Assembly: GCA_052327205.1 (NCBI GenBank)
Contig: CM126228.1
Coordinates: 14,322,001-14,386,000 of the forward strand
DNA length: 64,000 nt
Reading direction: 5' to 3'
Source of the DNA: Somniosus microcephalus
Lineage: Eukaryota
Numbering within the stretch: the first letter of the stretch is position 1; each line of letters starts with the position of its first letter. The translations under genes and the position numbers were made by a program. Shown one piece after another: positions 6,604-61,877 of this stretch. Under the pieces are notes generated by a model. It was not told the DNA's origin, did no database searches, and saw only the letters and a program-made list of their open reading frames with translations.

Positions 6604-6703
6604 GCTCTGATGAAAGTTCATCGGCCTGGAACGTTAACTCTGTTTCTCTCTCCACAGATGCTGCCTGACCTGCTGAGGGTTTTCCAGCATTTTCTGTTTT
6701 ATT
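6604..6703 (+). mobile_element. Short Penelope-like unit with degenerate hammerhead core
   Basis: CTGATGAAAGTTCATCGGCCTGGAACGTTAACTCTG..GATGCTGCCTGACCTGCTGAG; 16-bp TSD with 2 mismatches (6588-6603 and 6704-6719). Confidence 0.75.
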
Positions 6704-28850: not shown

Positions 28851-29785
28851 CATTCCTGTGATATTCCCAGCCAAGCTCGCCACCCCTGTGATATTTCCAG
28901 CCACGCTCCCCATCCCTGCGATATTCCCAGCCAAGCTCCCCATCACTGTGATATTCCCAGCCAAGCTCGCCACCCCTGCGATATTTCCAGCCACGCTCCC
29001 CATCCCTGCTATATTCCCAGCCAAGATCCCCATCCCTGTGATGTTTCCAGCCAAGCTCCCCATCCCTGTGATATTCCCAGCCACGCTCCCCATCCCTGCG
29101 ATATTCCCAGCCAAGATCCCCATCCCTGTGATATTCCCAGCCAAGCTCCCCATCCCTGCGATATTCCCAGCCAAGCTCCCCATCCCTGCTATATTCCCAG
29201 CCAAGCTCCCCATCCCTGTGATATTCCCAGCCAAGATCCCCATCCCTGTGGTATTTCCAGCCAAGCTCCCCATCCCTGTGATATTCCCAGCCAAGCTCCC
29301 CATCCCTGCGATAATGCCAGTCAAGGTCCCCATCACTGTGATATTCCCAGCCAAGCTCCCCATCACTGTGATATTCCCAGCCAAGCTCCCCATCCCTGCG
29401 ATAATGCCAGTCAAGGTCCCCATCACTGTAATATTCCCAGTCAAGATTCCCATCCATGTGATATTGCCAGCCAAGATCCCCATCCCTGTGATATTCCCAT
29501 CCAAGATCCCCACCACTGTGATATTCCCAGCCAAGCTCCCCATCACTGTGATATTCCCAGCCAAGCTCCCCATTCCTGTGATAGTCCCAGCCAAGCTCCC
29601 CATCCCTGTGATAGTCCCAGCCAAGCTCCCCATCCCTGTGATATTCCCAGCCAAGCTCCCTGTCCCTGTGATATTCCCATTCAAGCGCCTCATCCCTGTG
29701 ATATTCCCACCCAGGCTCCCTATTGTTGAGATGCACAAATCCCAACCAAGCTCCCATCCCTGTGATATTCCCATGCAAGCTCCCT
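28851..29785. repeat. 30-bp minisatellite, ~31 units (ATATTCCCAGCCAAGCTCCCCATCCCTGTG)
   Basis: Exact 30-bp periodicity is visible in the 60-column layout. Confidence 0.98.
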
Positions 29786-31499: not shown

Positions 31500-32545
31500 A
31501 CAGAATCATAGAGATTTACGGTACAGAAGGAGGCCATTCGGCCCATCGTGTCTGTGCCGGCCGAAAAAGAACCCTCCAGCCTAATCCCACTTTCCAGCTC
31601 TTGGTCCATAGCCCTGTAGGTTAAGACAGTTCAAAGTGCATATCCAAGTACTTTTAAATGTGATGAGGGTTTCTGCCTCGACCACCCTTTCAGGCAGTGA
31701 GTTCCAGACCCCCACCACCCTCTGGGTGAAAGAAGTTCTCCTCAACCCCCCTCTAATCCTTCTACCAATTACTTTAAATCTCTGCCCCCTGGTTATCGAC
31801 CTCTCTGTTCAGGGAAATAGGTCCTTCCTATCCACTCTATCTAGGCCCCTCATAATTTTATACACCTCAATCAAGTCTCCCCTCAGCCTCCTCTGTTCCA
31901 AAGAAAACAACCCCAGCCGATCCAATCTTTCCTCAGAGCTAAAATTCTCCAGTCCTGGCAACATCCTCGTAAATCTCCTCTGTACCCTCTCTAATGCAAT
32001 CACATCTTTCCTGTAATGTGGTGACCAGAACTGTACACAGTACTCCAGCTGTGGCCTAACTAGAGTTTTAAACAGTTCTAGCATAACCTCCCTGTCCTTG
32101 TATTCTATGCCTCGGCTAATAAAGGAAAGTAAGTATGCCTTCGTCACCACCTTTCCTGCTACATTCAAGGATCTGTGGACATGCACTCCAAGGTTCCTCT
32201 GCTCCTCTACATTTCTCAGTATCCTACTATTTATAGTTTTGAAAAAGGGTTAGACCCAAAACGTCAACTCTAATTTCTCTCCACGGATGTTGCCTGGCCT
32301 GCTGAGTTTTTTCCAGCATTTTCTGTTGTTATTTCGGATTTCCAGCATCTGCAGTATTTTGCTATCGTGCTACTTATAGTGTATTCCCTTGCCTTGTTAG
32401 CCCTCCCCAAATGCATTACCTCACACTTCTCTGGATTGAATACCACTTTTCTGCCCACCTGACCAGTCCATTGATATTTTCCTGCAGTCTACAGCTTTCT
32501 TCCTCACTATCAACCACACGGCCAATTTTCATATCATCTGCAAAC
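31500..32545 (-). mobile_element. CR1 LINE 3' fragment
   Basis: Translated ..NPEKCEVMHLG..LVRPQLEYCVQFWSPHYRKD..LERVQRRFTRM..RLRGDLIEVYKIM. Confidence 0.95.
32238..32365 (+). mobile_element. Penelope-like unit inserted in a CR1
   Basis: ..GACCCAAAACGTCAACTCT..GGATGTTGCCTGGCCTGCTGAG..GCAGTATTTTGCTAT interrupts the CR1 sequence; TTATAGT is repeated on both sides. Confidence 0.75.
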
Positions 32546-38850: not shown

Positions 38851-39908
38851 GCCCCCAAAATTCATAAGGCCCTGACAGGCGAGCTGCATCGGGGCATCTG
38901 ATTTATTCTAAGGAGACATGAGGATGAATTCACTTCGGTCCCCAGGCCTCACCATTCCATGCGCTGCTGGAATCACACCCAGTTTGGGTCTTTAGGTTAA
39001 GGAATCTAGGCCCCCCAGAGTTTTAAGGAAAACGGCAGAGTTCAGAGAGAGAGAGAGAGAATTTGCAGTATCTTGATGCCTCTTTTCTGATGATTCCGAA
39101 TTTGAGGGCTTTGAATTAGAGTGGAGGTAGACCAGTGAAAAGGGCCTTTGTTGTCAGGAACGTCAGGCTGTCTGCTGCCTAGAGGGTGGCTCGTGCAGCT
39201 TTATCAAAGATGGAAAAGATGTGCGATCCCATTGTGACTTTTCTCACAGTACAGATGTTTCAGAGCAGTTTCAAAAGGCATCTTATTCATCTAAAATGTT
39301 TTACACAGTGACCACACTTAAAAAAAACCTCTATTGTATATCTTTATTGAAGGAACACGATCGCCCTTTGGTTCCACTGCAAGCTCAGTATTTGACACTC
39401 AACATGGTAAAACATGTTCATCATCGCTATTGTGACAGTTCATGTCATTCTCACGTGTTGCCACAATTACACATCTCCTCCTTAAGACTGCAGCAATGCA
39501 TTAACACACGCAGAAGCTTGTTATCGCTCTCTCACCTCTTGCCTCCAATGTCTTTCTCACTCAGTCATAACCTTTCCTACAGACTGTTTAAAGATTGATT
39601 CTCAGCTAAGCTGTGTTTAATTTCTCTGCACCCTCGCTCACCTCAGCTGAGGTGAATTCCAACAGCTCATCTTTGAATTTTTGTACCAACTCCAAATTCT
39701 CTCTCTGTTATAACCTCTCTTGTCTCTCTCTCTCTCTCTGTTATAACCTCTCTTGTCTCTCTCTCTCTCGGTTATAACCTCTCTTGTCTCTCTCTCTCTC
39801 TGTTATAACCTCTCTTGTCTCTCTCTCTGTTATAACCTCTCTTGTCTCTCTCTCTCTCTAATATAACCTCTCTTGTCTCTCTCTCTCTCTGTTATAACCT
39901 CTCTTGTC

Positions 39909-42828: not shown

Positions 42829-43867
42829 TCTCTCTCTCTCTGTTATAACCTCTCTTGTCTCTCTCTCTCTCTGTTATAACCTCTCTTGTCTCTCTCTCTC
42901 TCTGTTATAACCTCTCTTCTCTCTCTCTCTCTCTGTTATAACCTCTCTTCTCTCTCTCTCTCTCTATTATAACCTCTCTTGTCTCTCTCTCTCTCTGTTA
43001 TAACCTCTCTTCTCTCTCTCTCTCTGTTATAACCTCTCTTGTCTCTCTCTCTCTCTATTATAACCTCTCTTGTCTCTCTCTCTCTCTGTTATAACCTCTC
43101 TTGTCTCTCTCTCTCTGTTATAACCTCTCTTGTCTCTCTCTCTCTCTCTCTGTTATAACCTCTCTTGTCTCTCTCTCTCTCTATTATAACCTCTCTTCTC
43201 TCTCTCTCTCTCTATTATAACCTCTCTTGTGTCTCTCTCTCTCTGTTATAACCTCTCTTGTCTCTCTCTCTCTCTCTGTTATAACCTCTCTTGTCTCTCT
43301 CTCTCTCTCTGTTATAACCTCTCTTCTCTCTCTCTCTCTCTATTATAACCTCTCTTGTGTCTCTCTCTCTCTGTTATAACCTCTCTTGTCTCTCTCTCTC
43401 TGTTATAACCTCTCTTGTCTCTCTCTCTCTCTGTTATAACCTCTCTTGTCTCTCCCTCTCTCTGTTATAACCTCTCTTGTCTCTCTCTCTCTCTGTTATA
43501 ACTTCTCTTCTCTCTCTCTCTCTGTTATAACTTCTCTTCTCTCTCTCTCTCTGTTATAACCTCTCTTGTTTCTCTCTCTCTCTATTTGATTGAAACCACA
43601 AGAAAACATCCCTTGGAAATGGTCACGGTGAGTGAGAGGATGCACTGTTTAAGGCTGCAAAGTCTAATGGCTGTTAAGTTAAAAACTAGGTGAGTTCATA
43701 TAGGGGTCAATTAAGAGACCACAGATATTCTGGCTTCAGTATTTTGTGTTCCGGGATTGTTTCTTTACACTTTCCTTTGTAGTATGACTCAGAAATGTAA
43801 GTGTGACACTTGAAGGGTGGCAGAGAAGTGTGACGAATAGGAAATGCATATTAGACATACTGTTGAA

Positions 43868-44541: not shown

Positions 44542-45003
44542 TTTTTATATTGTAGATAGATAGAGGGTCATTATTCCTATGAACACTCCTATCTTGTACC
44601 TCCCAATCTCCAAATACAGCATCCTACTCTCTGCATCTTCACTGTGCTGAAATCAAAACTTCTCCTGCACTAACTCACTTTTCCCCAAGGACTTCAAGCT
44701 ACAAATTCCCTCTTGCAATCTGCAGACTTTTAAACCCAAAATTGGCATCACCTAATCATTACTTCTTCATTTGCCTTGTCTCCTCTCCTGTTCTTATCAA
44801 CTCTGGCAGTCTCCTGCATATTGGGTATTTTTAATGGCAACAGTGGAACTGGACAACCAGCGCTTTAACTCATTGATGTCTGACATTGCATTTATGCAAC
44901 ATTTTTATTTTTTGTTAAAACAAAGAGCAAAAATTACTTCCATCCCCACAATGAGGACTGACAATGACAGGGGCGTCAACAGTGACATGAATCGCCATCT
45001 ACG

Positions 45004-47760
45004 ACAGGAAGCACTGAGTGTGACAGGGAGCTCCGAGTGTGACAGGGAATTCCGAGTGTGACAGGGAGCTCCGAGTGTGACAGGGAGCTCCAAGAGTGAC
45101 GGGGAATTCCGAGTGTGACAGGGAGCTCCGAGCGTGACAGGGAGCTCCGAGTGTGACGGGGAATTCCGAGTGTGACAGGGAGCTCCGAGTGTGACGGGGA
45201 ACACCGAGTGTGACAGGGAATTCCGAGTGTGACAGGGAGCACCGAGTGTGACAGAGAGCTCCGAGTGTGACAGGGAATTCCGAGTGTGACAGGGAGCTCC
45301 GAGTATGACAGGGAATTCCGAGTGTGACAGGGAGCTTCGAGTGTGACAGGCAGCTCCGAGTGTGACAGGAAATTCTGAGTGTGACAGGGAGCTCCGAGTG
45401 TGACGGGGAATTCCGAGTGTGACAGGGAGATCCGAGTGTGACAGGGAATTCCGAGTGTGACAGGGAGCACCGAGTGTGACAGAGAGCTCCGAGTGTGACA
45501 GGGAATTCCGAGTGTGACAAGGAGCACCAAGTGTGACAGAGAGCACCGAGTGTGACAGGGAGCTCCGAGTGTGACAGGGAATTCCGAGTGTGACAGGGAA
45601 TTCCAAGTGTGACAGGGAGCTCCGAGTGTGACAGGGAGCACTGAGTGTGACAGAGAGCTCCGAGTGTGACAGGGAGCTCCGAGTGTGACAGGGAATTCCG
45701 AGTGTGACAGGAAGCAGCGAATGTGACAGGAAATGGTGAGTGTGACAGGGAGCACCAAGTTTGACAGGGAATTCCAAGTGTGACAGGGAATTCTGAGTGT
45801 GATCGGGAGCTCCAAGTGTAACAGGGAGCTCCGAGTGTGACAGGGAGCACCGAGTGTGACAGAGAGCTCTGAGTGTGACAGGGAATTCCAAGTGTGACAG
45901 GGAATTCCGAGTGTGACAGGGAGCTCCGAGTATGAAAGGGAATTCCAAGTGTGACAGGGAGCTCCGAGCATGACAGGGAATTCCAAGTGTGACAGGGAGC
46001 TCCGAGTGTGACAGGGAGCTCTGAGTGTGACAGGGAATTCCGAGTGTGACAGGGAGCTCCGAGTGTGACAGGGAGCTCCGAGTGTGACCGGGAATTCCGA
46101 GTATGACAGGGAGCACCGAGTGTGACAGAGAGCTCCGAGTGTGACAGGGAACACCGAGTGTGACAGGGAATTCCGAGTGTGACAGGGAGCTCCGAGTGTG
46201 ACAGGGAGCTCCGAGTGTGACAGGGAGCTCCGAGTGTGACAGGGAATTCCGAGTGTGACAGGGAGCACCGAGTGTGACAGAGAGCTCCGAGTGTGACAGG
46301 GAGCTCCGAGTGTGACAGGGAATTCCGAGTGTGACAGGGAGCACCGAGTGTGACAGAGAGCTCCGAGTGTGACAGGGAGCTCCGAGTGTGACAGGGAATT
46401 CTGAGTGTGACAGGGAGCTCCGAGTGTGACAGGGAACACCGAGTGTGACAGGGAATTCCGAGTGTGACAGGGAGCTCCGAGTGTGACAGGGAGCTCCGAG
46501 TGTGACAGGGAGCTCCGAGTGTGACAGGGAATTCCGAGTGTGACAGGGAGCACCGAGTGTGACAGAGAGCTCCGAGTGTGACAGGGAGCTCCGAGTGTGA
46601 CAGGGAATTCTGAGTGTGACAGGGAGCTCCGAGTGTGACAGAGAGCTCCGAGTGTGACAGGGAGCTCCGAGTGTGACAGGGAATTCCAAGTGTGACAGGG
46701 AGCTCCGAGTGCGACAGGGAGCACTGAGTGTGACAGGGAGCACCGAGTGTGACAGAGAGCTCCGAGTGTGACAGGGAACACTGAGTGTGACAGGCAATTC
46801 CGAGTGTGACAGGGAGCTCCGAGTGTGACAGGGAGCTCCGAGTGTGACAGGGAGCACCGAGTGTGACAGGGAACTCCAAGTGTGACAGGGAGCTCCGAGT
46901 GTGACAGGAAACACCGAGTGTGACAGGGAATTCCGAGTGTGACAGGGAGCACCGAGTGTGACAGGGAATTCCGAGTGTGACAGGGAGCACCGAGTGTGAC
47001 AGGGAATTCCGAGTGTGACAGGAAGCAGCAAATGTGACAGGAAATGGTGAGTGTGACAGGGAGCACCAAGTGTGACAGGGAATTCCAAGTGTGACAGGGA
47101 ATTCTGAGTGTGACAGGGAGCTCCGAGTGTAACAGGGAGCTCCGAGTGTGACAGGGAGCACAGAGTGTGACAGAGAGCTCTGAGTGTGACAGGGAGCACT
47201 GAGTGTGACAGGGAATTCCAATTGTGACAGGAAGCAGCGAGTGTGACAGGAAATGGTGAGTGTGACAGTGAGCACCAAGTGTGACAGGGAGCACCGAGTG
47301 TGACAGGAAATGGTGAGTGTGACAGGGAACTCAGAGTGTGACAGCAAGCTCTGAGTGTGACAGGAAGCTCTGAGTGTGACAGGAAATTCCAAGTGTGACA
47401 GGGAATTCTGAGTGTGACAGGGAGCTCTAAGTGTGAAAGGGAATTCTGTGTGTGACAGGGAATCCGAGTGTGACTGCGAATTCTGAGTGTGATAAGATGC
47501 GGCTATGGTGATAGAGGATTCCGAGTGTGACAGGGAATTGAGTGTGACAGGGAGCTCCAAGTGTGACAGGAAGCTCTGAGTGTGACAGGGAGCTCCGAGT
47601 GTGACAGGGAGGAAATTCTGTGTGTGACAGGGAATTCCAAGTGTGACAGGGAGGAAATTCTGAGTGCGACAGGGAATTCTGAGAGTGACAGGGTGGGAAC
47701 TCCAAGTGTGACAGGGAATTCCGAGTGTGACAGGGTGGGAATTCCGAGTATGACAGGAAG
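45004..47760. repeat. 19-bp minisatellite, ~140 units (GAGTGTGACAGGGAGCTCC / GAGTGTGACAGGGAATTCC variants)
   Basis: Direct tandem periodicity; 19-aa repeats in all three minus frames. Confidence 0.98.
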
Positions 47761-51574: not shown

Positions 51575-51999
51575 ACCGACTTGCATTTCTATAGCGCCTT
51601 TCACGATCACCGGACATCCCAAAGCGCTTTACAGCCAATGAAGTACTTTTGAAGTGTAATCACTGTTGTAATGTAGGAAACGCGGCAGCCAATTTGCGCA
51701 CAGTAAGCTCCCACAAACAGCAATGTGATAATGACCAGATAATCTGTTTTTGGTTATGTTGATTGAGGGATAAATATTGGCCAGGACACCGAACTCCCCT
51801 GCTCTTCTTCGAAATAGTGCCATGGGATCTTTTACGTCCACCTGAGAGGGCAGACGGGACCTCGGTTTAACATCTCATCTGAAAGACGGCACCTCCGACA
51901 GTGCAGCACTCCCTCAGCACTGCACTGGGAGTGTCAGCCTAGATTTTGTGTGCTCAAGTCTCTGGAGTGGGACTCGAACCCACAACCTTCTGAGTCAGA
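51575..51999 (-). mobile_element. SacSINE1-like SINE with a GAAA-rich tail expansion (51490-51575)
   Basis: Near-consensus copy that ends in a fold-back within the head. Confidence 0.92.
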
Positions 52000-54007
52000 A
52001 GGTTGTGGGTATCCAGTTACCCCTACGAAAAAGTGCGTGTGGGTGTGTGTGTGTGTGTGGCATGAAGACAGTCAAGCTCGACTGCGATACTCGTGACTGT
52101 TGAATAACCTGCTGACACTCACAATCCAGGCTCATGCATGAAGAATAGTATCATGGCTCAGCTACCAGAGGACAGCCAGGATCTGTACAACTGTATCCCA
52201 GCAGAGAGTCATCTCCTTCTGCAGAAGGAGGGGGAGTAATTGTAAAACAAAACTCAAGGCATTGCACTGTGCATAAATGAGGTGCTCATACTGGTGGCTA
52301 TTGATTTCTATTGGCTCGTTTAATTCTGTATCGCCCAGATTTGCAATATGCAAAACTTACTGTGATGTCCCTATAAATTCTCGTGAGAAAGAAAGTCTGG
52401 AAATAAAGATCCCATCTGGCACCTTCATGGGACTTTGAGCCGGAGCTGAAACAATGCCAAATGGGTCTGTTCAGCAGAGAATGAGTTCATGCAAATGAGG
52501 CTGAGTAGACGCATAGAATGCTGTTGATTGGCCGACAAGTACTGTAAAACCCACAATAGAGGCCCAGTTTCACACAGTCGCCAGAACCCCTCATTGTTCT
52601 GTCCTGAAACTGCTGCTGTGACAGGAGGGAATCACACAGTGCCAGCAGCGAAACTCAAAAAGTTTGCCATAAAAATATTAAATGAACGCGTTGTTTAACA
52701 GTAACGCCGAACTCAAAGGCAGGAATGTATCTCTCCCTTCAGCCCATTATTATCCACTTTCGTATTTTGTTTCACATTTTGTGAGCACACAGACCCTGGT
52801 TTGATGAAATCCATGATACACATGGGTCTTTCAGTTCATTAATGCCTAATTGAATTGATTTGGTTGAGTACGAGACTCCCTTGTTTGCATTTTATGACTG
52901 GCAGGCCTGCTGAATGAATTGTTTCCATGTGTGGTATGGGAGTACGATGCCACCAGCGGGCACACTGGGTGCCATGGTTACGATGCAGCAAGCGTGCCAG
53001 CATGGTGACATCATTTTCAGTACTGGCGCCTATCGTTGCTGGGAGACTAAGAGCTGGGCTGTGAAATCATTTTTTTCTTTAAAAAAAATCTAAATACATA
53101 GCTTAGAGTAGGCACAGAATGTCACATCGATGCCAGGCAAATTCAACTGATAGACAGACCTGGGCTTAGTCTGTCTCCATCCGCTTAATAAAACAGCACT
53201 GTTACTGCTCTGCTACCATTGAGGGTCCAATGCTCTCCAACTGAAATCCATTTACATGGACTGAATATGAATTTGAAACAAAACACATTCTCCATACCAC
53301 CCCCTCCCCTTCTTAGTAGTAAAAAAGAAAAAATGTCTTGCATGTATATAGCGCCTTTCACGACTACCGGACGTCCAAAAGCACTTTACAGCCAATGAAG
53401 TACTATTGAAGTGCAGTCACTGTTGTAATGTAGGAAACACGGCAGCCAATTTGCACACAGCAAGCTCCCACAAACAGCAATGTGATAATGACCAGATAAT
53501 CTGTTTTCAGTGAAGTTGATTGAGGGATAAATATTGGCCAGGACACCGGGGATAGCTCCCCTAACTCCCCTGCTCTTCTTCGAAATAGTGGCATGGGATC
53601 TTTTACGTCCACCTGAGAAGGCAGAGGGGGTCTCAGTTTAACGTCTCATCCAAAAGATGGCACCTCTGACAGTGCAGCACTACACTCAGTACTGCACTTA
53701 TGTGGCAGCTCAAGTCTCTGGAGGGGACTTGAAACCACAACCTTCTAGACTCAGAGGCGAGAGTGCTACCCACTTTTTTTAATATATATTATTTATTGAA
53801 CATTAAAAACATTTACAACATTGTGATCATTCCATTGTATCATACCAATCCATTCCGCCGCTCTGCACAGCCATTCCTCCACCACATATTAACATCAAAA
53901 CCTGAAGTTTAATTTGTTTCCCATAACATATACTAATCTATTGTACTTTAAAAATTGATCAATAATCATAGCTCTGAATAAGGGAAGTGTGCCTGATAAC
54001 CCCCCCA

Positions 54008-55730
54008 TCATTTAATCGCCGGCCCTTCCCTCCTCTCCTGCTCCTTCCCAACTTTTCGGGCAGCTGTTGCTTTCTCCTGCAGCCTCCGGCTCTTTTTCAC
54101 CTCCTGTTTGAACCTTCCCTGCAGTTTCAGCCTCTTCCTTACATTAGGTTTGAGCTGAGGAGCTGCCCTTTCTCCCTCCTTCTGCCCCTCACTAACCTTT
54201 CCCTTTCCACATGATGCCACCCCACCCCCCACTGCCATGTCTCTGTCCCCCTCTGACTTCTCACTCTCGAGCTCTTCTGTAACCTCCCATCCCTGCTCCC
54301 CGTCAGATACATAATCTCCCTTAGAGAGTCTTCCTGCCATCACGGTTTCTCCAACAGTGTCACTCCCTTCAGCCTCATCTCCACTGCTGATCCTTGCTCC
54401 CTGTTTCTTCTCTCTCTGGGTCAATGGCGCATTTGCACCTATCTTGCTCCTTTCTGGCCTCTGTCTCCCGCTCCCATCCTGCTGCCCCTTTAAGGCTCCT
54501 GCCTCTTGCACCCTCTCCTTGTCTTTCCCCCTCCTGCTCCCCGAGATGTCTGACTCCCCGTCTTTCTTTGGAGCAGTTACACTTACCCCGCACCCCGCTC
54601 CCGCCTCCTCTCCCCCCGTGGACACCAGATACTTTAGGGAGAGGCGAGCCGTATTATGGCTCATCTCTACCCTCAACCCGCTGCTGTCTTTGTCCTTTTC
54701 CACTGTACTTGGTGTGTTTTCCACCATCTCCATCCTGTTCTCTGCTCCGCAATTTTCAGCCTCTTCCTGCGCTCTTTTCTCCTTCCATTTACCAGTTGTG
54801 TCCTCCGCCTGCTCCGCTCCTCCAGCTGTTCCACACACACCTCCTGCTCCTTCTCCTTCTCCCATCTCCTCGTCACTCAAGGGGCTTCCTTCTGCTACAC
54901 ACTCACAGTGGGTGGGGCCTTTGTGACACGCCCCACAACTCTCTACCTTGCAGCTCCAAGCGATGTGTCCAGACTCGCCGCAGTTATAACAGTACAAGTC
55001 TGGACAGTTTCTTACAAGATGGCTGTGTCCAAGACAATAATAACAAACCTTCATACAAAAGCAAAATACTGCGGATGCTGGAAATCTGAAATAAAAACAG
55101 AAAATGCTGGAAATACTCAGCAGGTCAGGCAGCATCTGTGGAGAGAGAAACAGAATTAACGTTTCAGGTCGATGATGAAATAACAAACCTTCACCTGGTT
55201 ATCCTTCAGTACCTGGAGGTCTGCATGCCTTCCATTGTCTCAAATTTCATGCTATACGGCAATGACTTCACCCCTTCTGGGAACCACACCTTTAAATAAC
55301 AGGTTCCATCTGCTACCGGCATTCCTGGATAGTATCTCCTCTTCATTGCTGAGCAAATTTTAATGTCCCACGACTCCAACGTTTTTATTTGCACATCGTC
55401 CTCAATATAAACCGGCAGGTTTAAGAATGAGACCACTGCCTCTTCAGAATATAGCAGAGATACCTCCAAGAACTTATCTCCAAACTTGAAACTCAGTAAA
55501 AGTCTTTCCACCTCCTCTCGGCCACTGACCGTCACCTCGAACCCAACATTCGGCTTTGGTCGGCAGGCAAAGCAGCTTCCCTCATTGCAGTGCTCATGTA
55601 CCGCCTGTATAATATCCCAAGCTCGTACAGGAAACTTTCTGGTATCCGGCACGGACGGGACCGACCTGGTGCCGGTTCATCAACAATTCCGGATAACCGA
55701 ACACTATAGTAAAAGATACGGAGTTCAGAG
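54008..55730 (-). pseudogene. Disrupted Tx1-type ORF1 (gag-like zinc-knuckle protein)
   Basis: VSFLNLPVYIED..KRRYYPG..VADGT.YLKV.F..VKSLPYS.KF followed by NQVKV-CYYCLGHSHLVRNC and CYNCGESGHIAWSC (CX2CX4HX4C), then a long charged low-complexity tail. Frameshifts at ~55210 and probably ~55655, plus a 125-bp insertion at 55054-55178. Confidence 0.85.
55054..55178 (-). mobile_element. Short Penelope-like terminal-repeat unit inserted in the Tx1 ORF1
   Basis: Perfect 15-bp TSD AATAACAAACCTTCA (55039-55053 and 55179-55193). Same sequence as the copies at 6.6, 32.3, 58.2, 58.5 and 61.6 kb. Confidence 0.85.
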
Positions 55731-56765
55731 CTCTGTATAAAGCAACAAATCCTGTTGCTCAGCTTCAAAACAATCGGCACAAGTTGCAAGCATCTCTGTA
55801 GCTTAGCAACAGCTTCAGCTACACCCTTGCACAGCAACAAATGGAGTTTAAAAAGGTAATAAAAGTAATAAAAGTTAACGGAACCAACTCCTGAATTTTG
55901 CCAGTGGATAGAGTGTTCCAGTTATTTAGGGGCCGGTTAATCAAAAGTTTCCTGTATCTCCTTATCCTCGCACTGAACCACCACCAAGTTTTCTTTTCCA
56001 AACCTCCTGGGGTCCCGGCCCAAATCTTTGGGCCTTTTTTCTCCCTTCCCCTGACATTTTCTCCCCTGATTAAATTTATCCTGGGAACATTGTCCTCTGA
56101 GGAGCCCGGCACTCCTCAGCTGTTGTTTAAGGTCCAAAAAGGCCCTAAAACCTGAAAAAAAAAGCTACCAACTTTTTACAAACTCACTCCAACTCCCTGC
56201 AGTAATCAAGCAACCAGCAGCGCCTGCTCACTCCTAGCCCCTCCCACCTCGAGAGTGCTACCCACTGAGCCACCGATGATACCTAGCAGTGTGGTTATGA
56301 CATAGACCCCAGGTTTGATCCCTAGGCTGTGTCAATCTGAACTGAGGAGGCAGTAGGAGATCTATAAATGGCCTCAGCATCCTTGAACTAGGAAGCAAAA
56401 CAACCGCTGAAAGTTCCAGCTCCTTATCACTGCTCCATCACCCCTGTTGAAAAATACACATGTGTGGATATCGGGTGAGATGAGGACAGGATTGGGATCA
56501 TGTATGATGCCTCCTCAACAGCTTGTTCATGCTTACACGTGAAGAATAGCCACTTGACGGAGGTGCCTGGGGAACCGTACCCCAGGGCAGGTTAATATCT
56601 TCGGAAGAGGAGGGGAGAAACCTGAAGGTGGAAAATAAAGAAAGCTGAACTTAGTTAAATTGACACTGTGATGACACAGAGGGGATTTTCACCCCCACAC
56701 AATGTTCTGGGACCCCAGGGGTTAACTGTTTGGTGTAAGATGTTTCATTGTATTCCCATGGCCTT

Positions 56766-56893
56766 GTTGCTATGACAGCCGAATAGTAACGGATCTCTCT
56801 CACTACAACATAGCTTGCTCATCCTATCCTCCCCGAGAACAGGCAGGGAGCAAGCGCTCAGTTCTGTTCTACGGGGAGGTTCAGAGCGTGAGT
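56766..56893 (+). promoter_or_regulatory. Candidate promoter and non-coding first exon of the CARD gene
   Basis: RFX X-box-like GTTGCTATGACAGC (56766-56779), followed ~110 nt later by a splice donor C|GTGAGT (56888-56893), ~1 kb upstream of the putative ATG exon. Confidence 0.35.
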
Positions 56894-57211
56894 TAATCTC
56901 TCAGGCCTTGCCTGCAAAAGCCAAGATGGCACAATTCAAAACAACTTTATATATTTGTCAAAAAAAAATCATTTTCCGCTTCCGTTGTCCTTTAGCTCCC
57001 CTCCTTTTCTGCAGACTTTTGTTGAGTGATGGTTCTAGAGGTGCTGGTCACACACTGGCAGTTCACTCAAGTGTGAATCTTCACACTTCACCTGTGAGCC
57101 TGGGCAGTAAGTGTCACTGAGCGGGGGGTGGGGTCCTCAGAAGCCAAGCCTGATCCTGGTCATCACCCAATGTCCACACATGCACTTTCTAGCAGGGGTC
57201 TGTTGATAGTG

Positions 57212-57687
57212 CCAGCCGTGGTTCAGTGGGTAGCACCCTTGTCTCAGAGTCATGAAGGTCATGGGTTCGAGTCACCCTCCAGAGACCTGAGCACTAAGAT
57301 CTAGGCTGACACCCCAGTGCAGTGCTGAGGGAGTGCTGCACTGTCAGAGGTGCCCTCTTTCAGATGAGACATTAAACTGAGGCCCCGTCTGTTCTCTGAG
57401 GTGGATATAAAAGATCCCATGGCACAATTTCAAAGAAGAGCAGGAGAGTTATCCCCGGTGTCCTGGCCAATATTTATCCCTCAATCAACATCACTAAAAA
57501 AACAGGTTATCTGGTCATTATCACATTGCTGTTTGTGGGAGCTTGCTGTGTGCAAATTGGCTGCCGTGTTTCTTACATTACAACAGTGACTATACAATAC
57601 TTCAAAAAGTACTTCATAGGCTGTAAAGCGTTTTGGGACGTCCGGGGGTCATGAGAGGTGCTGTAAAAATACAAGTCTTTCTTTTTA
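57212..57687 (+). mobile_element. SacSINE1-like SINE, full length
   Basis: Head-to-tail match to the family. Confidence 0.92.
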
Positions 57688-57959
57688 GGAGCAGGAACCC
57701 TGGTTGCTATTCCCCTCCCGAGCCCAGAGGTGCCGAGGCCAGTTGTAGTCCCTCCTGCAGCCACTCTGCCTGAGATCAGCTAACACAGCACAGACCAGGG
57801 ATGCAACCCGGGACCCGCCTAGTCTGTGTGGCGCAGTCACATATTAAACTGACCAATCTGACCGTTGGGAGAACTGCCTGTGCAACCTGCCGACTGTTAT
57901 TTCAGCAGAAGGAGCTGTAGCAAAATCACTTTTCCCATTTTTTTTTTCTTTTTACAGCA

Positions 57960-58196: not shown

Positions 58197-58316
58197 CTGA
58201 CGAAAGGTCATCGACCTGAAGCGTTAACGCTGCTTCTCTCCCTACAGATGCTGCCTGACTTGCTGAGTATTCCCAGCATTATTTCAGATTTCCAGCATCC
58301 GCAGTACTTTGCTTTT
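58197..58316 (+). mobile_element. Penelope-like unit with near-intact hammerhead core
   Basis: CTGACGA-A-AGGTC-ATC-GACCT-GAAGC-GTT-AAC; 13-bp TSD GTGATACTTGTCT (58186-58198 and 58317-58329). Confidence 0.8.
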
Positions 58317-58451
58317 GTGATACTTGTCTTGATGGTCACCTGGGTAAAGACAACATCAGAGTCTCGTGGCCAGTTACCCATGGCCCAAAATCTGTCTGCC
58401 CTTTCAATCCTTTTCTCCGCCAATTTTTCTTCCCTGCACCTCCTCTCCTGA

Positions 58452-58808
58452 AACGAAAGCAAAATATTGCTGGAAATCTGAAATAAAAAACAGAAAGTGC
58501 TGGAAAACACTCAGCAGGTCAGGCAGCATCTGTGGAGGGAGACACAGAGGTAATGTTTCCTGTTGATGACCTTTCATCGGAACTGGAAGATGTTAGAGAC
58601 GAACAGCTTTTAAGCAATGGCAGAGCCAGGGAAAAGCGGGCAGGGAAAGAACAAAAGGGAAAGGTCTGGAATAGGGTGTGGGGCATTAAGGAGTGATTAA
58701 ATGACAAAAGGGATGATGGTGCAAGGCAAAAGTGTGGGGGGGGGGGGGTTCTGGACCCATCTTTTGTTTCTTTACTTGTCCCACTATCACCCCCTTTTGC
58801 CTTGCATC
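58452..58808 (-). mobile_element. Longer Penelope-like 3' fragment with an inverted segment
   Basis: Same unit extended ~150 bp upstream of the hammerhead region, then an inverted piece (CTTTTGCCTTGCA at ~58795 is the reverse complement of TGCAAGGCAAAAG at ~58720). Confidence 0.7.
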
Positions 58809-61639: not shown

Positions 61640-61760
61640 TGGTCACCGACCTGAAACGTTAACTCTGTTTCTCTCTCCACGGATGCTGCCTGGCCTGCTG
61701 AGTATTTCCAGCATTTTCTGTTGTTATTTCAGATTTCCGGCATCCGCAGTATTTTGCTAT
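61640..61760 (+). mobile_element. Penelope-like unit
   Basis: GGTCACCGACCTGAAACGTTAACTCTG..GGATGCTGCCTGGCCTGCTGAG..GCAGTATTTTGCT. Confidence 0.8.
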
Positions 61761-61877
61761 TATATTCGCTTTTGCCCATTTTGAGCGTTCGCTGAAGACC
61801 AATTTCACCCCCAAAATCTAACATTATTCATTCTTGAATGATGCCCGTTTTTGACACAACATTTTTAATGTTCCCAG

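What the first reader, a model, noticed from the sequence alone, without database searches (positions are those of the whole stretch)
53758..56266. ORF1-only Tx1-clade retroelement inserted in the A-box region of a tRNA-derived SINE head
Seen: a ~2.35 kb element (excluding the nested insert) with a 17-bp TSD, a long 5' leader, a zinc-knuckle ORF1, a ~230-nt 3' UTR, AATAAA and poly(A), and no ORF2. The TSD is the SINE tRNA-like sequence AGTGGGTAGCACTCTCG. Known: ORF1-only 'half-L1' (HAL1) elements exist in mammals, and many Tx1-clade LINEs are sequence-specific for RNA-gene arrays or microsatellites. Inference: this may be an undescribed non-autonomous Tx1 family that transposed in this compact form and targets tRNA-like or SINE heads, i.e. 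a parasite of a parasite.
Basis: partly seen in the sequence, partly recalled or inferred. Interest (0 to 1): 0.75.

Follow-up and report, generated by a model that had tools for sequence, protein, structure and literature searches.

The report
Half-LINE family landing in SINE promoters
This is a damaged copy of an abundant 2-kb jumping gene that keeps only the RNA-binding first gene of a LINE and must borrow its copying enzyme, and it probably inserts by preference into the promoter of another jumping gene; both habits are known separately, but not together in this LINE group as far as could be checked.

Summary
The insertion is real: minus strand 53775-56249, perfect 17-bp TSD, Tx1-type ORF1 (RRM-like core plus CCHC knuckles), 233-nt 3' UTR, AATAAA, 6-A tail, no ORF2 trace. 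It splits the A box region of a tRNA-headed SINE. One correction: the 'long 5' leader' is mostly a second nested insert (327-bp MITE) plus the ORF1 N-terminus, so the element is about 2.0 kb. Sequencing runs show a multi-copy family: 20 of 24 listed runs, from 7 organisms and 8 studies, hold part of it. Depth is flat from 5' to 3', and diverged contigs from two organisms bridge ORF1 stop to 3' UTR without a gap. A one-off deletion is therefore unlikely. Target preference is likely but not counted: the 3 end-reaching records I could resolve, from 3 runs, all continue into the same target motif. No genome was available, so ORF2-bearing copies and off-target copies could not be counted, and no autonomous partner was found. 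The ORF1 relatives I could fetch with flanks are mostly two-ORF LINEs, 7 of 11 in 5S rRNA genes (Mutsu-like). Verdict: a HAL1/HeT-A-like ORF1-only derivative of the Tx1 group, probably SINE-head targeting; new variant of a known kind.

The parts
53758..53774 (-). Target-site duplication, copy at the element's 3' end (17 bp)
   Evidence: Exact repeat
56250..56266 (-). Target-site duplication, copy at the element's 5' end (17 bp); begins 6 nt into the SINE A box
53775..54007 (-). 3' UTR, 233 nt, 68% AT, AATAAA at 53797-53792, 6-A tail at 53780-53775; no detectable ORF2 remnant
   Evidence: negative ORF2 tests
54008..55053 (-). ORF1 3' part: CCHC knuckles, then a long charged low-complexity tail; open for 347 codons; stop at 54010-54008
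55054..55178 (.). Nested insert 1: 125-bp piece of a very high-copy repeat, probably a Penelope-like terminus (label inferred/recalled); 15-bp TSD at 55039-55053 and 55179-55193
   Evidence: summed depth 3-6 million
55194..55625 (-). ORF1 middle: conserved RRM-like core of Tx1-type ORF1; frameshift near 55,220 that is private to this copy
   Evidence: table 4
55626..55956 (.). Nested insert 2: 327-bp MITE (55628-55954) with TA duplication and terminal inverted repeats (13 identical letters counting the TA; 22 of 30 match), Tc1/mariner type by its ends
   Evidence: skipped by contigs of X1, X8, X17 table 5
55957..56120 (-). ORF1 N-terminal part; aligns with the N-terminal block of relatives; start position approximate, no in-frame ATG in this copy
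56121..56249 (-). 5' UTR, about 130 nt (inner boundary approximate)
   Evidence: inferred
56250..56279 (-). Host SINE, 5' piece with the A box (starts at 56272)
53322..53774 (-). Host SINE, remainder with B box, body and tail; 8.8% from the column majority of the window's other SINE copies; resembles SacSINE1 (recalled, not aligned)

Best explanation
A roughly 2.0-kb non-autonomous retroelement family of the Tx1 group that encodes ORF1p only and has spread in this compact form to many copies (order of thousands, rough) in several related, probably shark, genomes. Shown: structure, TSD, multi-copy state, shared ORF1-to-3'UTR continuity. Inferred mechanism: a Pol II transcript from the short 5' UTR is polyadenylated at the AATAAA. 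Its own ORF1p coats the RNA and helps it capture ORF2p (APE endonuclease plus RT) of an autonomous Tx1-type partner in trans. The partner's endonuclease nicks the SINE head inside the A box, reverse transcription is primed there on the A tail, and a second nick 17 nt away gives the TSD. The insertion is in the SINE's sense direction and moves the A box 2 kb from the B box, which should silence that SINE copy. This copy is now dead (two later inserts, one frameshift).
For: Family: 20 of 24 listed runs, 7 organisms, 8 studies hold sampled words. Summed contig depth has medians of about 49,500 (X1) and 30,800 (X8) along the element against 7.5-26 for single listed contigs, with up to 100 distinct contigs per variant site. 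Compact form: depth of 3' UTR, ORF1 and 5' end is similar (X1 73k/46k/43k/61k; X8 25k/30k/36k/31k), with no 5'-truncation slope. Gap-free contigs span the stop/UTR region in two organisms: X1 record 1 (53861-54030, 8.8% diverged) and X17 record 10 (53903-54050, 5.4%); X17 record 9 covers the rest to the tail. ORF1 frame: the frameshift is private (table 4), and 7 of 11 non-zero gap totals of listed ORF1 pieces are multiples of three (p 0.04, pieces overlap, weak). Target: both listed contigs that reach an element end run into the same target (X17 record 9, 20 nt at the 3' end; X1 record 8, 11 nt at the 5' end, 10.6% diverged), and 2 X22 reads, possibly one molecule, cross the 5' junction into at least 8 nt of it. 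Chance of a random insertion hitting this exact site in this orientation is about 7e-5. Lineage: 7 of 11 fetched ORF1 relatives sit in sense direction in 5S rRNA genes.
Against: No genome was held, so copies were not counted. The loose-end and joint tables were swamped by the nested high-copy repeat (1908 and 329 rows hidden), so ORF2-bearing copies and off-target flanks could be present unseen. Only 24 of 219,919 pieces were listed, chosen by length, which favours pieces that extend into the flank. X17 record 9 stops matching 3 nt past the TSD with 40 letters unaligned, so its flank may not be this SINE. Orthology of the three junction records with this locus is not excluded. Summed depth is not a copy number. 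No autonomous partner was found. The window ORF1 lies on a long branch outside the 5S-targeting cluster. 8 of 9 SINE heads in the window are empty.
Confidence: 0.58

Rival explanations
1. A real ORF1-only family, but without sequence preference; this copy fell into a SINE head by chance because SINEs are abundant.
For: SINE copies cover about 7.7% of the window. Only three junction records were resolved, and the listing favours long pieces. The site was noticed after the fact.
Against: The same nucleotide is joined in records from three runs and three organisms; exact-site chance is about 7e-5 per insertion. A rough depth budget leaves 70% (X1) and 34% (X8) of 5'-end depth continuing into the target beyond what SINE-only contigs explain, if the SINE-only left/right ratio of X17 holds for the other runs.
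Confidence: 0.2
2. The true target is a tRNA gene family (or another tRNA-derived repeat) with the same A-box/D-arm sequence, and SINE heads are hit as look-alikes.
For: X17 record 9 matches 20 nt of target and then leaves the SINE sequence. Related elements target Pol III genes (5S). The host's 17-mer is shared within 2 mismatches by only 2 other SINE heads in the window. The head resembles tRNA-Gln (recalled).
Against: The one fully visible locus is a SINE, not a tRNA gene (ARAGORN 0 genes). The family's apparent copy number would be large for tRNA genes alone (inference).
Confidence: 0.12
3. The copies are passive retrocopies, not a self-propagating family: prematurely polyadenylated transcripts of an autonomous LINE, or processed pseudogenes of a domesticated ORF1 gene.
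For: No ORF2 remnant marks a deletion junction. An ATG overlaps the ORF1 stop, as ORF2 starts do in some relatives (L006, L008).
Against: The 38-codon frame after the stop does not match ORF2 N-termini. Copies diverge 3-16% from this one with shared indel variants, as in subfamilies.
Confidence: 0.06
4. A one-off internal deletion of ORF2 in this single copy of an ordinary autonomous Tx1 LINE.
For: ORF2-bearing copies could not be excluded because the relevant loose-end rows were hidden. 8 of 11 fetched relatives have a long ORF2 right after ORF1.
Against: Diverged contigs from two other organisms carry the same ORF1-to-UTR continuity without gaps; 50 and 56 contigs cover position 54000; depth is flat across the element.
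Confidence: 0.04

Closest known systems
HAL1 (half-L1) of mammals
   Same: Non-autonomous LINE derivative that encodes only ORF1p and has arisen repeatedly (PMC5753468, passages; PMC5786205, passages).
   Different: HAL1 derives from the L1 clade with a mammalian-type ORF1p; this ORF1p is of the RRM-plus-CCHC type. The passage on ORF1-present non-autonomous LINEs names HeT-A (Jockey), HAL1 (L1) and Ag-Sponge (CR1), none from Tx1. HAL1 is not known to be site-specific (recalled).
HeT-A and other ORF1-only telomeric elements of Drosophila
   Same: ORF1-only and target-restricted; about 40% of telomeric families have lost ORF2, repeatedly (PMC13534243, passages).
   Different: Jockey clade, added to chromosome ends; here a Tx1-type element inserted internally with a 17-bp TSD.
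Tx1L (Xenopus, in Tx1D) and Tx1-Mar and related crocodilian Tx1 families
   Same: Tx1-clade elements that prefer a site inside another transposable element (PMC4494074, part 2 of 5, section 15 and passages).
   Different: The targets named there are piggyBac, Mariner, Harbinger and LTR elements, satellites, microsatellites and U2/U5/5S genes; no SINE or tRNA head appears in the parts read. Those families were placed by their RT domains, so they have ORF2.
Mutsu (5S rRNA gene-specific LINE) and the Mutsu-like loci L001-L009
   Same: Homologous ORF1 (35-38% identity over about 235 residues); same-sense insertion into the 5' part of a Pol III-type gene, with poly(A) and TSD (PMC5340908, passages).
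   Different: Two ORFs, 5S target, TSD of about 8 bp; the window ORF1 falls outside their cluster on a long branch.
Dada DNA transposons and Dewa
   Same: Dada families insert at tRNA nucleotides 8-13 in the A box, next to the nick seen here; Dewa targets the spacer of tRNA-Leu arrays (PMC3706591, PMC8869645, passages).
   Different: Dada is a DDE DNA transposon with 6-7 bp TSD; Dewa hits the spacer, not the gene body; neither is reported in a SINE in the passages read.

Membership tests
Tx1 clade of non-LTR retrotransposons | RT-domain phylogeny places ORF2 in the Tx1 clade | not testable with these tools
   The element has no ORF2, no partner was found, and no named Tx1 reference sequences were on hand
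Tx1 clade of non-LTR retrotransposons | ORF1 with RRM-like core and CCHC zinc knuckles, homologous to ORF1 of Tx1-group LINEs | tested here: met
   18 homologues among 204 candidates, best E 7e-23; zf-CCHC; Atlas hit to an RRM-bearing cluster at 0.93, family on 18% of members; homologues in loci are followed by APE-RT ORF2
Tx1 clade of non-LTR retrotransposons | Poly(A) tail and TSD | tested here: met
   6-A tail after AATAAA, 17-bp TSD
Tx1 clade of non-LTR retrotransposons | Target preference by Kojima's criterion (more than 20% of flanks of one type) | tested here: inconclusive
   3 of 3 resolvable end-reaching records carry the target; no genome-wide count
ORF1-present non-autonomous LINEs (HAL1/HeT-A/Ag-Sponge type) | ORF1 kept, ORF2 absent | tested here: met
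   No hit of 13 ORF2 sequences or their HMM in six frames
ORF1-present non-autonomous LINEs (HAL1/HeT-A/Ag-Sponge type) | Multi-copy family sharing the compact structure | tested here: met
   Gap-free diverged contigs across the stop/UTR region in two organisms, flat depth; shown on contigs, not on whole copies
ORF1-present non-autonomous LINEs (HAL1/HeT-A/Ag-Sponge type) | Autonomous partner with matching 5' and 3' ends | tested here: inconclusive
   None found; none of these covers a shark assembly
ORF1-present non-autonomous LINEs (HAL1/HeT-A/Ag-Sponge type) | ORF1 under purifying selection in the family | tested here: inconclusive
   Frameshift private to this copy; 7 of 11 gap totals are multiples of three; no dN/dS possible
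HAL1 in the strict sense | Derived from L1 with a Transposase_22-type ORF1p | tested here: not met
   Pfam finds zf-CCHC only, no Transposase_22
Mutsu | Inserted in a 5S rRNA gene | tested here: not met
   No 5S match at 53200-57800; the flank is a SINE head
Host as SacSINE1 (tRNA-headed DeuSINE of sharks) | tRNA-type A and B boxes at tRNA spacing | tested here: met
   Spacing 45 nt in the host, 43-45 in two other copies; Rfam tRNA match only 12 bits, E 5.4
Host as SacSINE1 (tRNA-headed DeuSINE of sharks) | Deu domain and L2-type tail matching the SacSINE1 consensus | not testable with these tools
   No consensus on hand; label recalled; description seen in PMC5499810 passages

The most novel reading that the evidence does not exclude
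A high-copy ORF1-only Tx1 family, shared by several shark species, that inserts almost only at one nucleotide of the A box of the dominant tRNA-headed SINE. It would be a protein-coding half-LINE that lives inside a SINE, disables the SINE's Pol III promoter on each jump, and has a fast-evolving ORF1p used to capture a partner's ORF2p. It would be the first ORF1-only Tx1 family and the first LINE-type element with a SINE promoter as its standing target in the literature I could search.
Probability: 0.4. Interest if true: 0.65.

Novelty: new variant of a known kind. Interest (0 to 1): 0.47.

Why it matters
It would add the Tx1 clade to the short list of LINE groups that give rise to ORF1-only families, and add a SINE promoter to the list of Tx1 targets. 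With HeT-A it suggests that target-specific LINEs are prone to lose ORF2. The partner's endonuclease would recognise a Pol III A-box sequence, which is testable in vitro. Thousands of same-site insertions would also be clean presence/absence markers for shark phylogeny. It does not show a new kind of mechanism.

Tried and rejected
1) Idea that the 3' UTR is an ORF2 start or C-terminal remnant: tblastn and HMMs from 5 and then 13 ORF2 sequences gave no significant hit; phmmer against 1.84 billion proteins gave 2 hits, a tandem-repeat protein and a rhodanese-like protein, both judged spurious. Not supported. 2) Other copies in the window: none beyond the nested repeat. 3) Exact 24-nt UTR pattern in metagenome contigs: 0; ORF1 relatives in viral contigs: 0 of 41 candidates. 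4) Homologue search with the ORF1 3' half: 0 of 2934 candidates. 5) Own genome not held. 6) Expression: no RNA holder is on record; X17 is only guessed to be RNA, so it is not used as evidence of transcription. Runs X20 (share 0.07) and X21 (0.00) are not counted as evidence. 7) Hammerhead core near the window's copies of the nested repeat: none found; the Penelope label rests on the loose-end consensus and on recall. 8) Rfam on the locus: nothing meaningful. 9) First tree run used wrong frames for two ORF1 pieces and failed; one search replaces it; L010 was left out because no ORF1 core was picked up. 10) Resemblance between the 5S target of the relatives and this target (8 of 10 letters, read by eye): the nick positions are not in register, so I set it aside. 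11) Earlier findings by sequence and by place: none.
Full report
Observation. The element lies on the minus strand at 53775-56249 between two exact 17-bp repeats, the only exact matches to that 17-mer in the window. It splits a SINE of about 480 bp, of which 13 other copies or pieces in the window were aligned. The SINE has A and B boxes 45 nt apart, and the TSD starts 6 nt into the A box; element and SINE point the same way. The 3' end has AATAAA and only 6 A.

Correction to the anatomy. There are two. The 125-bp piece with a 15-bp TSD is confirmed. In addition, contigs of three runs skip 329-330 bp at 55624-55957, and the middle of that stretch has summed depth of 5e5 in X1 but 4-300 in X8. 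Its ends are inverted repeats flanked by TA: a MITE. ORF1 continues on the far side of it and aligns with the N-terminal block of relatives. The element is therefore about 2.0 kb: a 5' UTR of about 130 nt, an ORF1 of about 550 codons and a 233-nt 3' UTR. In this copy ORF1 is dead. Contigs of three runs lack the frameshift near 55,220, so it is private.

What ORF1 is. The middle part finds 18 homologues among 204 candidates, best E 7e-23, 13 of them with precomputed zf-CCHC. Eleven loci with relatives were fetched (10, 1). Eight have an ORF of over 800 codons right after ORF1, two have several shorter ORFs there, and one ends inside ORF1. The two tested carry APE and RT domains. Seven of 11, about five distinct elements, start inside a 5S rRNA gene, and three show the rest of the gene after the poly(A). 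That is the Mutsu habit (PMC5340908 and PMC3706591, passages). The search patterns came from an alignment of the first hits, so this sample leans to that group. The window ORF1 is 32-38% identical to full-length relatives and sits on a long branch (2.09) outside the 5S cluster; the tool marks that placement as unsure. So it is Tx1-type, not Mutsu, and clade membership by RT cannot be tested.

No ORF2. Thirteen ORF2 sequences and their HMMs give no significant match in six frames. I suspected that the short frame after the ORF1 stop was an ORF2 remnant; these tests and a full phmmer search did not support it.

Family or accident. No genome was held. Of 24 listed runs, 20 hold words of the 3' half, from 7 organisms and 8 studies; the best share is 0.50. 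I laid 4 of the 24. Median summed depth along the element is about 49,500 in X1 and 30,800 in X8, against 7.5-26 for single listed contigs. The tool warns that this is no copy number; I read it only as 'many, order of thousands'. Depth is similar over 3' UTR, ORF1 and 5' end, unlike a long LINE with 5' truncation. Three listed contigs, 4-9% diverged from this copy, tile the region from inside ORF1 to the tail: X1 record 1 and X17 record 10 without gaps, X17 record 9 with 3 gap letters. Fifty contigs in X1 and 56 in X8 show one variant at 54000, eight letters past the stop. The compact form is thus shared. Against: loose ends and joints were dominated by the nested repeat (1908 and 329 rows hidden), so a minority, or even a sizeable class, of ORF2-bearing copies would not have been seen, and no listed piece spans the whole element.

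Target. Of the 24 listed pieces, 2 reach an element end, and both continue into the target. X17 record 9 matches 20 nt at the 3' end, then leaves 40 letters unaligned. X1 record 8 matches 11 nt at the 5' end and is 10.6% diverged. In X22 (raw reads, 31 laid) two reads, possibly the mates of one molecule, cover 56171-56257 fully and add 18 bases beyond, so they also cross the 5' junction into the target. A depth budget, which assumes that SINE-only contigs fall on the two flanks in the ratio seen in X17, leaves 70% (X1) and 34% (X8) of 5'-end depth running into the target; this is rough. A random insertion would hit this nucleotide in this orientation about 7 times in 100,000. Against: the pieces were chosen by length, orthology is not excluded, and record 9 may lie in a tRNA gene or another repeat. 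I put site preference for this motif, whether in SINEs or tRNA genes, at about 0.7.

Mechanism. Shown: structure, TSD, shared compact form. From established knowledge of target-primed reverse transcription and the passages: the site is set by the endonuclease of ORF2p, and ORF1p of ORF1-only elements is thought to assemble with partner proteins. Inferred: a Tx1-type partner nicks the SINE head in the A box, copies this RNA in trans, and the insertion parts the A box from the B box and silences that SINE copy. The partner was not found.

Comparison and novelty. ORF1-only LINE derivatives are known from the L1, Jockey and CR1 clades (PMC5786205, passages; PMC5753468, passages; PMC13534243, passages). 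Tx1 families that target other transposons are known (PMC4494074, part 2 of 5, section 15 and passages). The tRNA A box is a known target of Dada DNA transposons. Ten literature searches (listings and abstract starts, with passages of ten papers) showed no ORF1-only Tx1 family and no Tx1 family in a SINE head. Bao and Jurka 2010 was not held, Kojima and Fujiwara 2004 was seen only as cited, Repbase Reports cannot be searched, and I read no supplements; the family may be filed in one of these. Earlier notes of this scan report SINE-targeting Tx1-like elements and ORF1-only elements in other genomes; I did not test them, and they suggest that each habit is more common than print shows.

Verdict. 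Real, a family, probably site-preferring; a new variant of a known kind. Interest 0.47.

Noticed in passing
window 55626-55956: 327-bp TA-flanked MITE whose middle is very abundant in run X1 (summed depth 5e5) and nearly absent in X8 (4-300): a lineage-restricted burst, useful for dating this locus.
   Followed up: partly
window 55054-55178; other copies at 61643-61765, 58208-58318, 58453-58569, 32253-32363, 6618-6700: Very high-copy short repeat, probably a Penelope-like terminus. The loose-end consensus past 55175 reads on the other strand like a hammerhead core (motif recalled); no intact core was found near the window copies. This copy has a 15-bp TSD.
   Followed up: partly
table 5c, joints 56268 to 53750 and 53753 in X1: Contigs with depth 110-290 join two SINE-head pieces at a period of about 34 bp: possibly a minisatellite made of the SINE head, which would be a tandem array of this element's target.
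   Followed up: no
window about 51985-52015: A SINE copy lacks its A box and begins, just past the position of the target site, with an inverted duplication of its own next 15 letters.
   Followed up: no
L011 (contig WFXA01000126.1, 1-4972): A contig of a Flavobacteriaceae MAG in GTDB encodes a Tx1-type ORF1 followed by long ORFs: probable eukaryotic contamination.
   Followed up: no
L001, L002, L004, L006-L009: Mutsu-like LINEs in 5S rRNA genes in metagenome contigs; in L008 the 5S sequence resumes right after the A tail without the short duplication seen in L004 and L006.
   Followed up: partly
window 28851-29784, 42829-43583, 45003-47735, 39698-39908: Long minisatellites with periods 30, 31 and 19; the 31-bp unit occurs at three places.
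   Followed up: no
run X22: A more distant organism has reads on ORF1 and the 5' end at 80-99% identity but none on the 3' UTR or the ORF1 end: either a diverged UTR or a relative with another 3' part, possibly the autonomous form. Coverage is low (31 reads).
   Followed up: no
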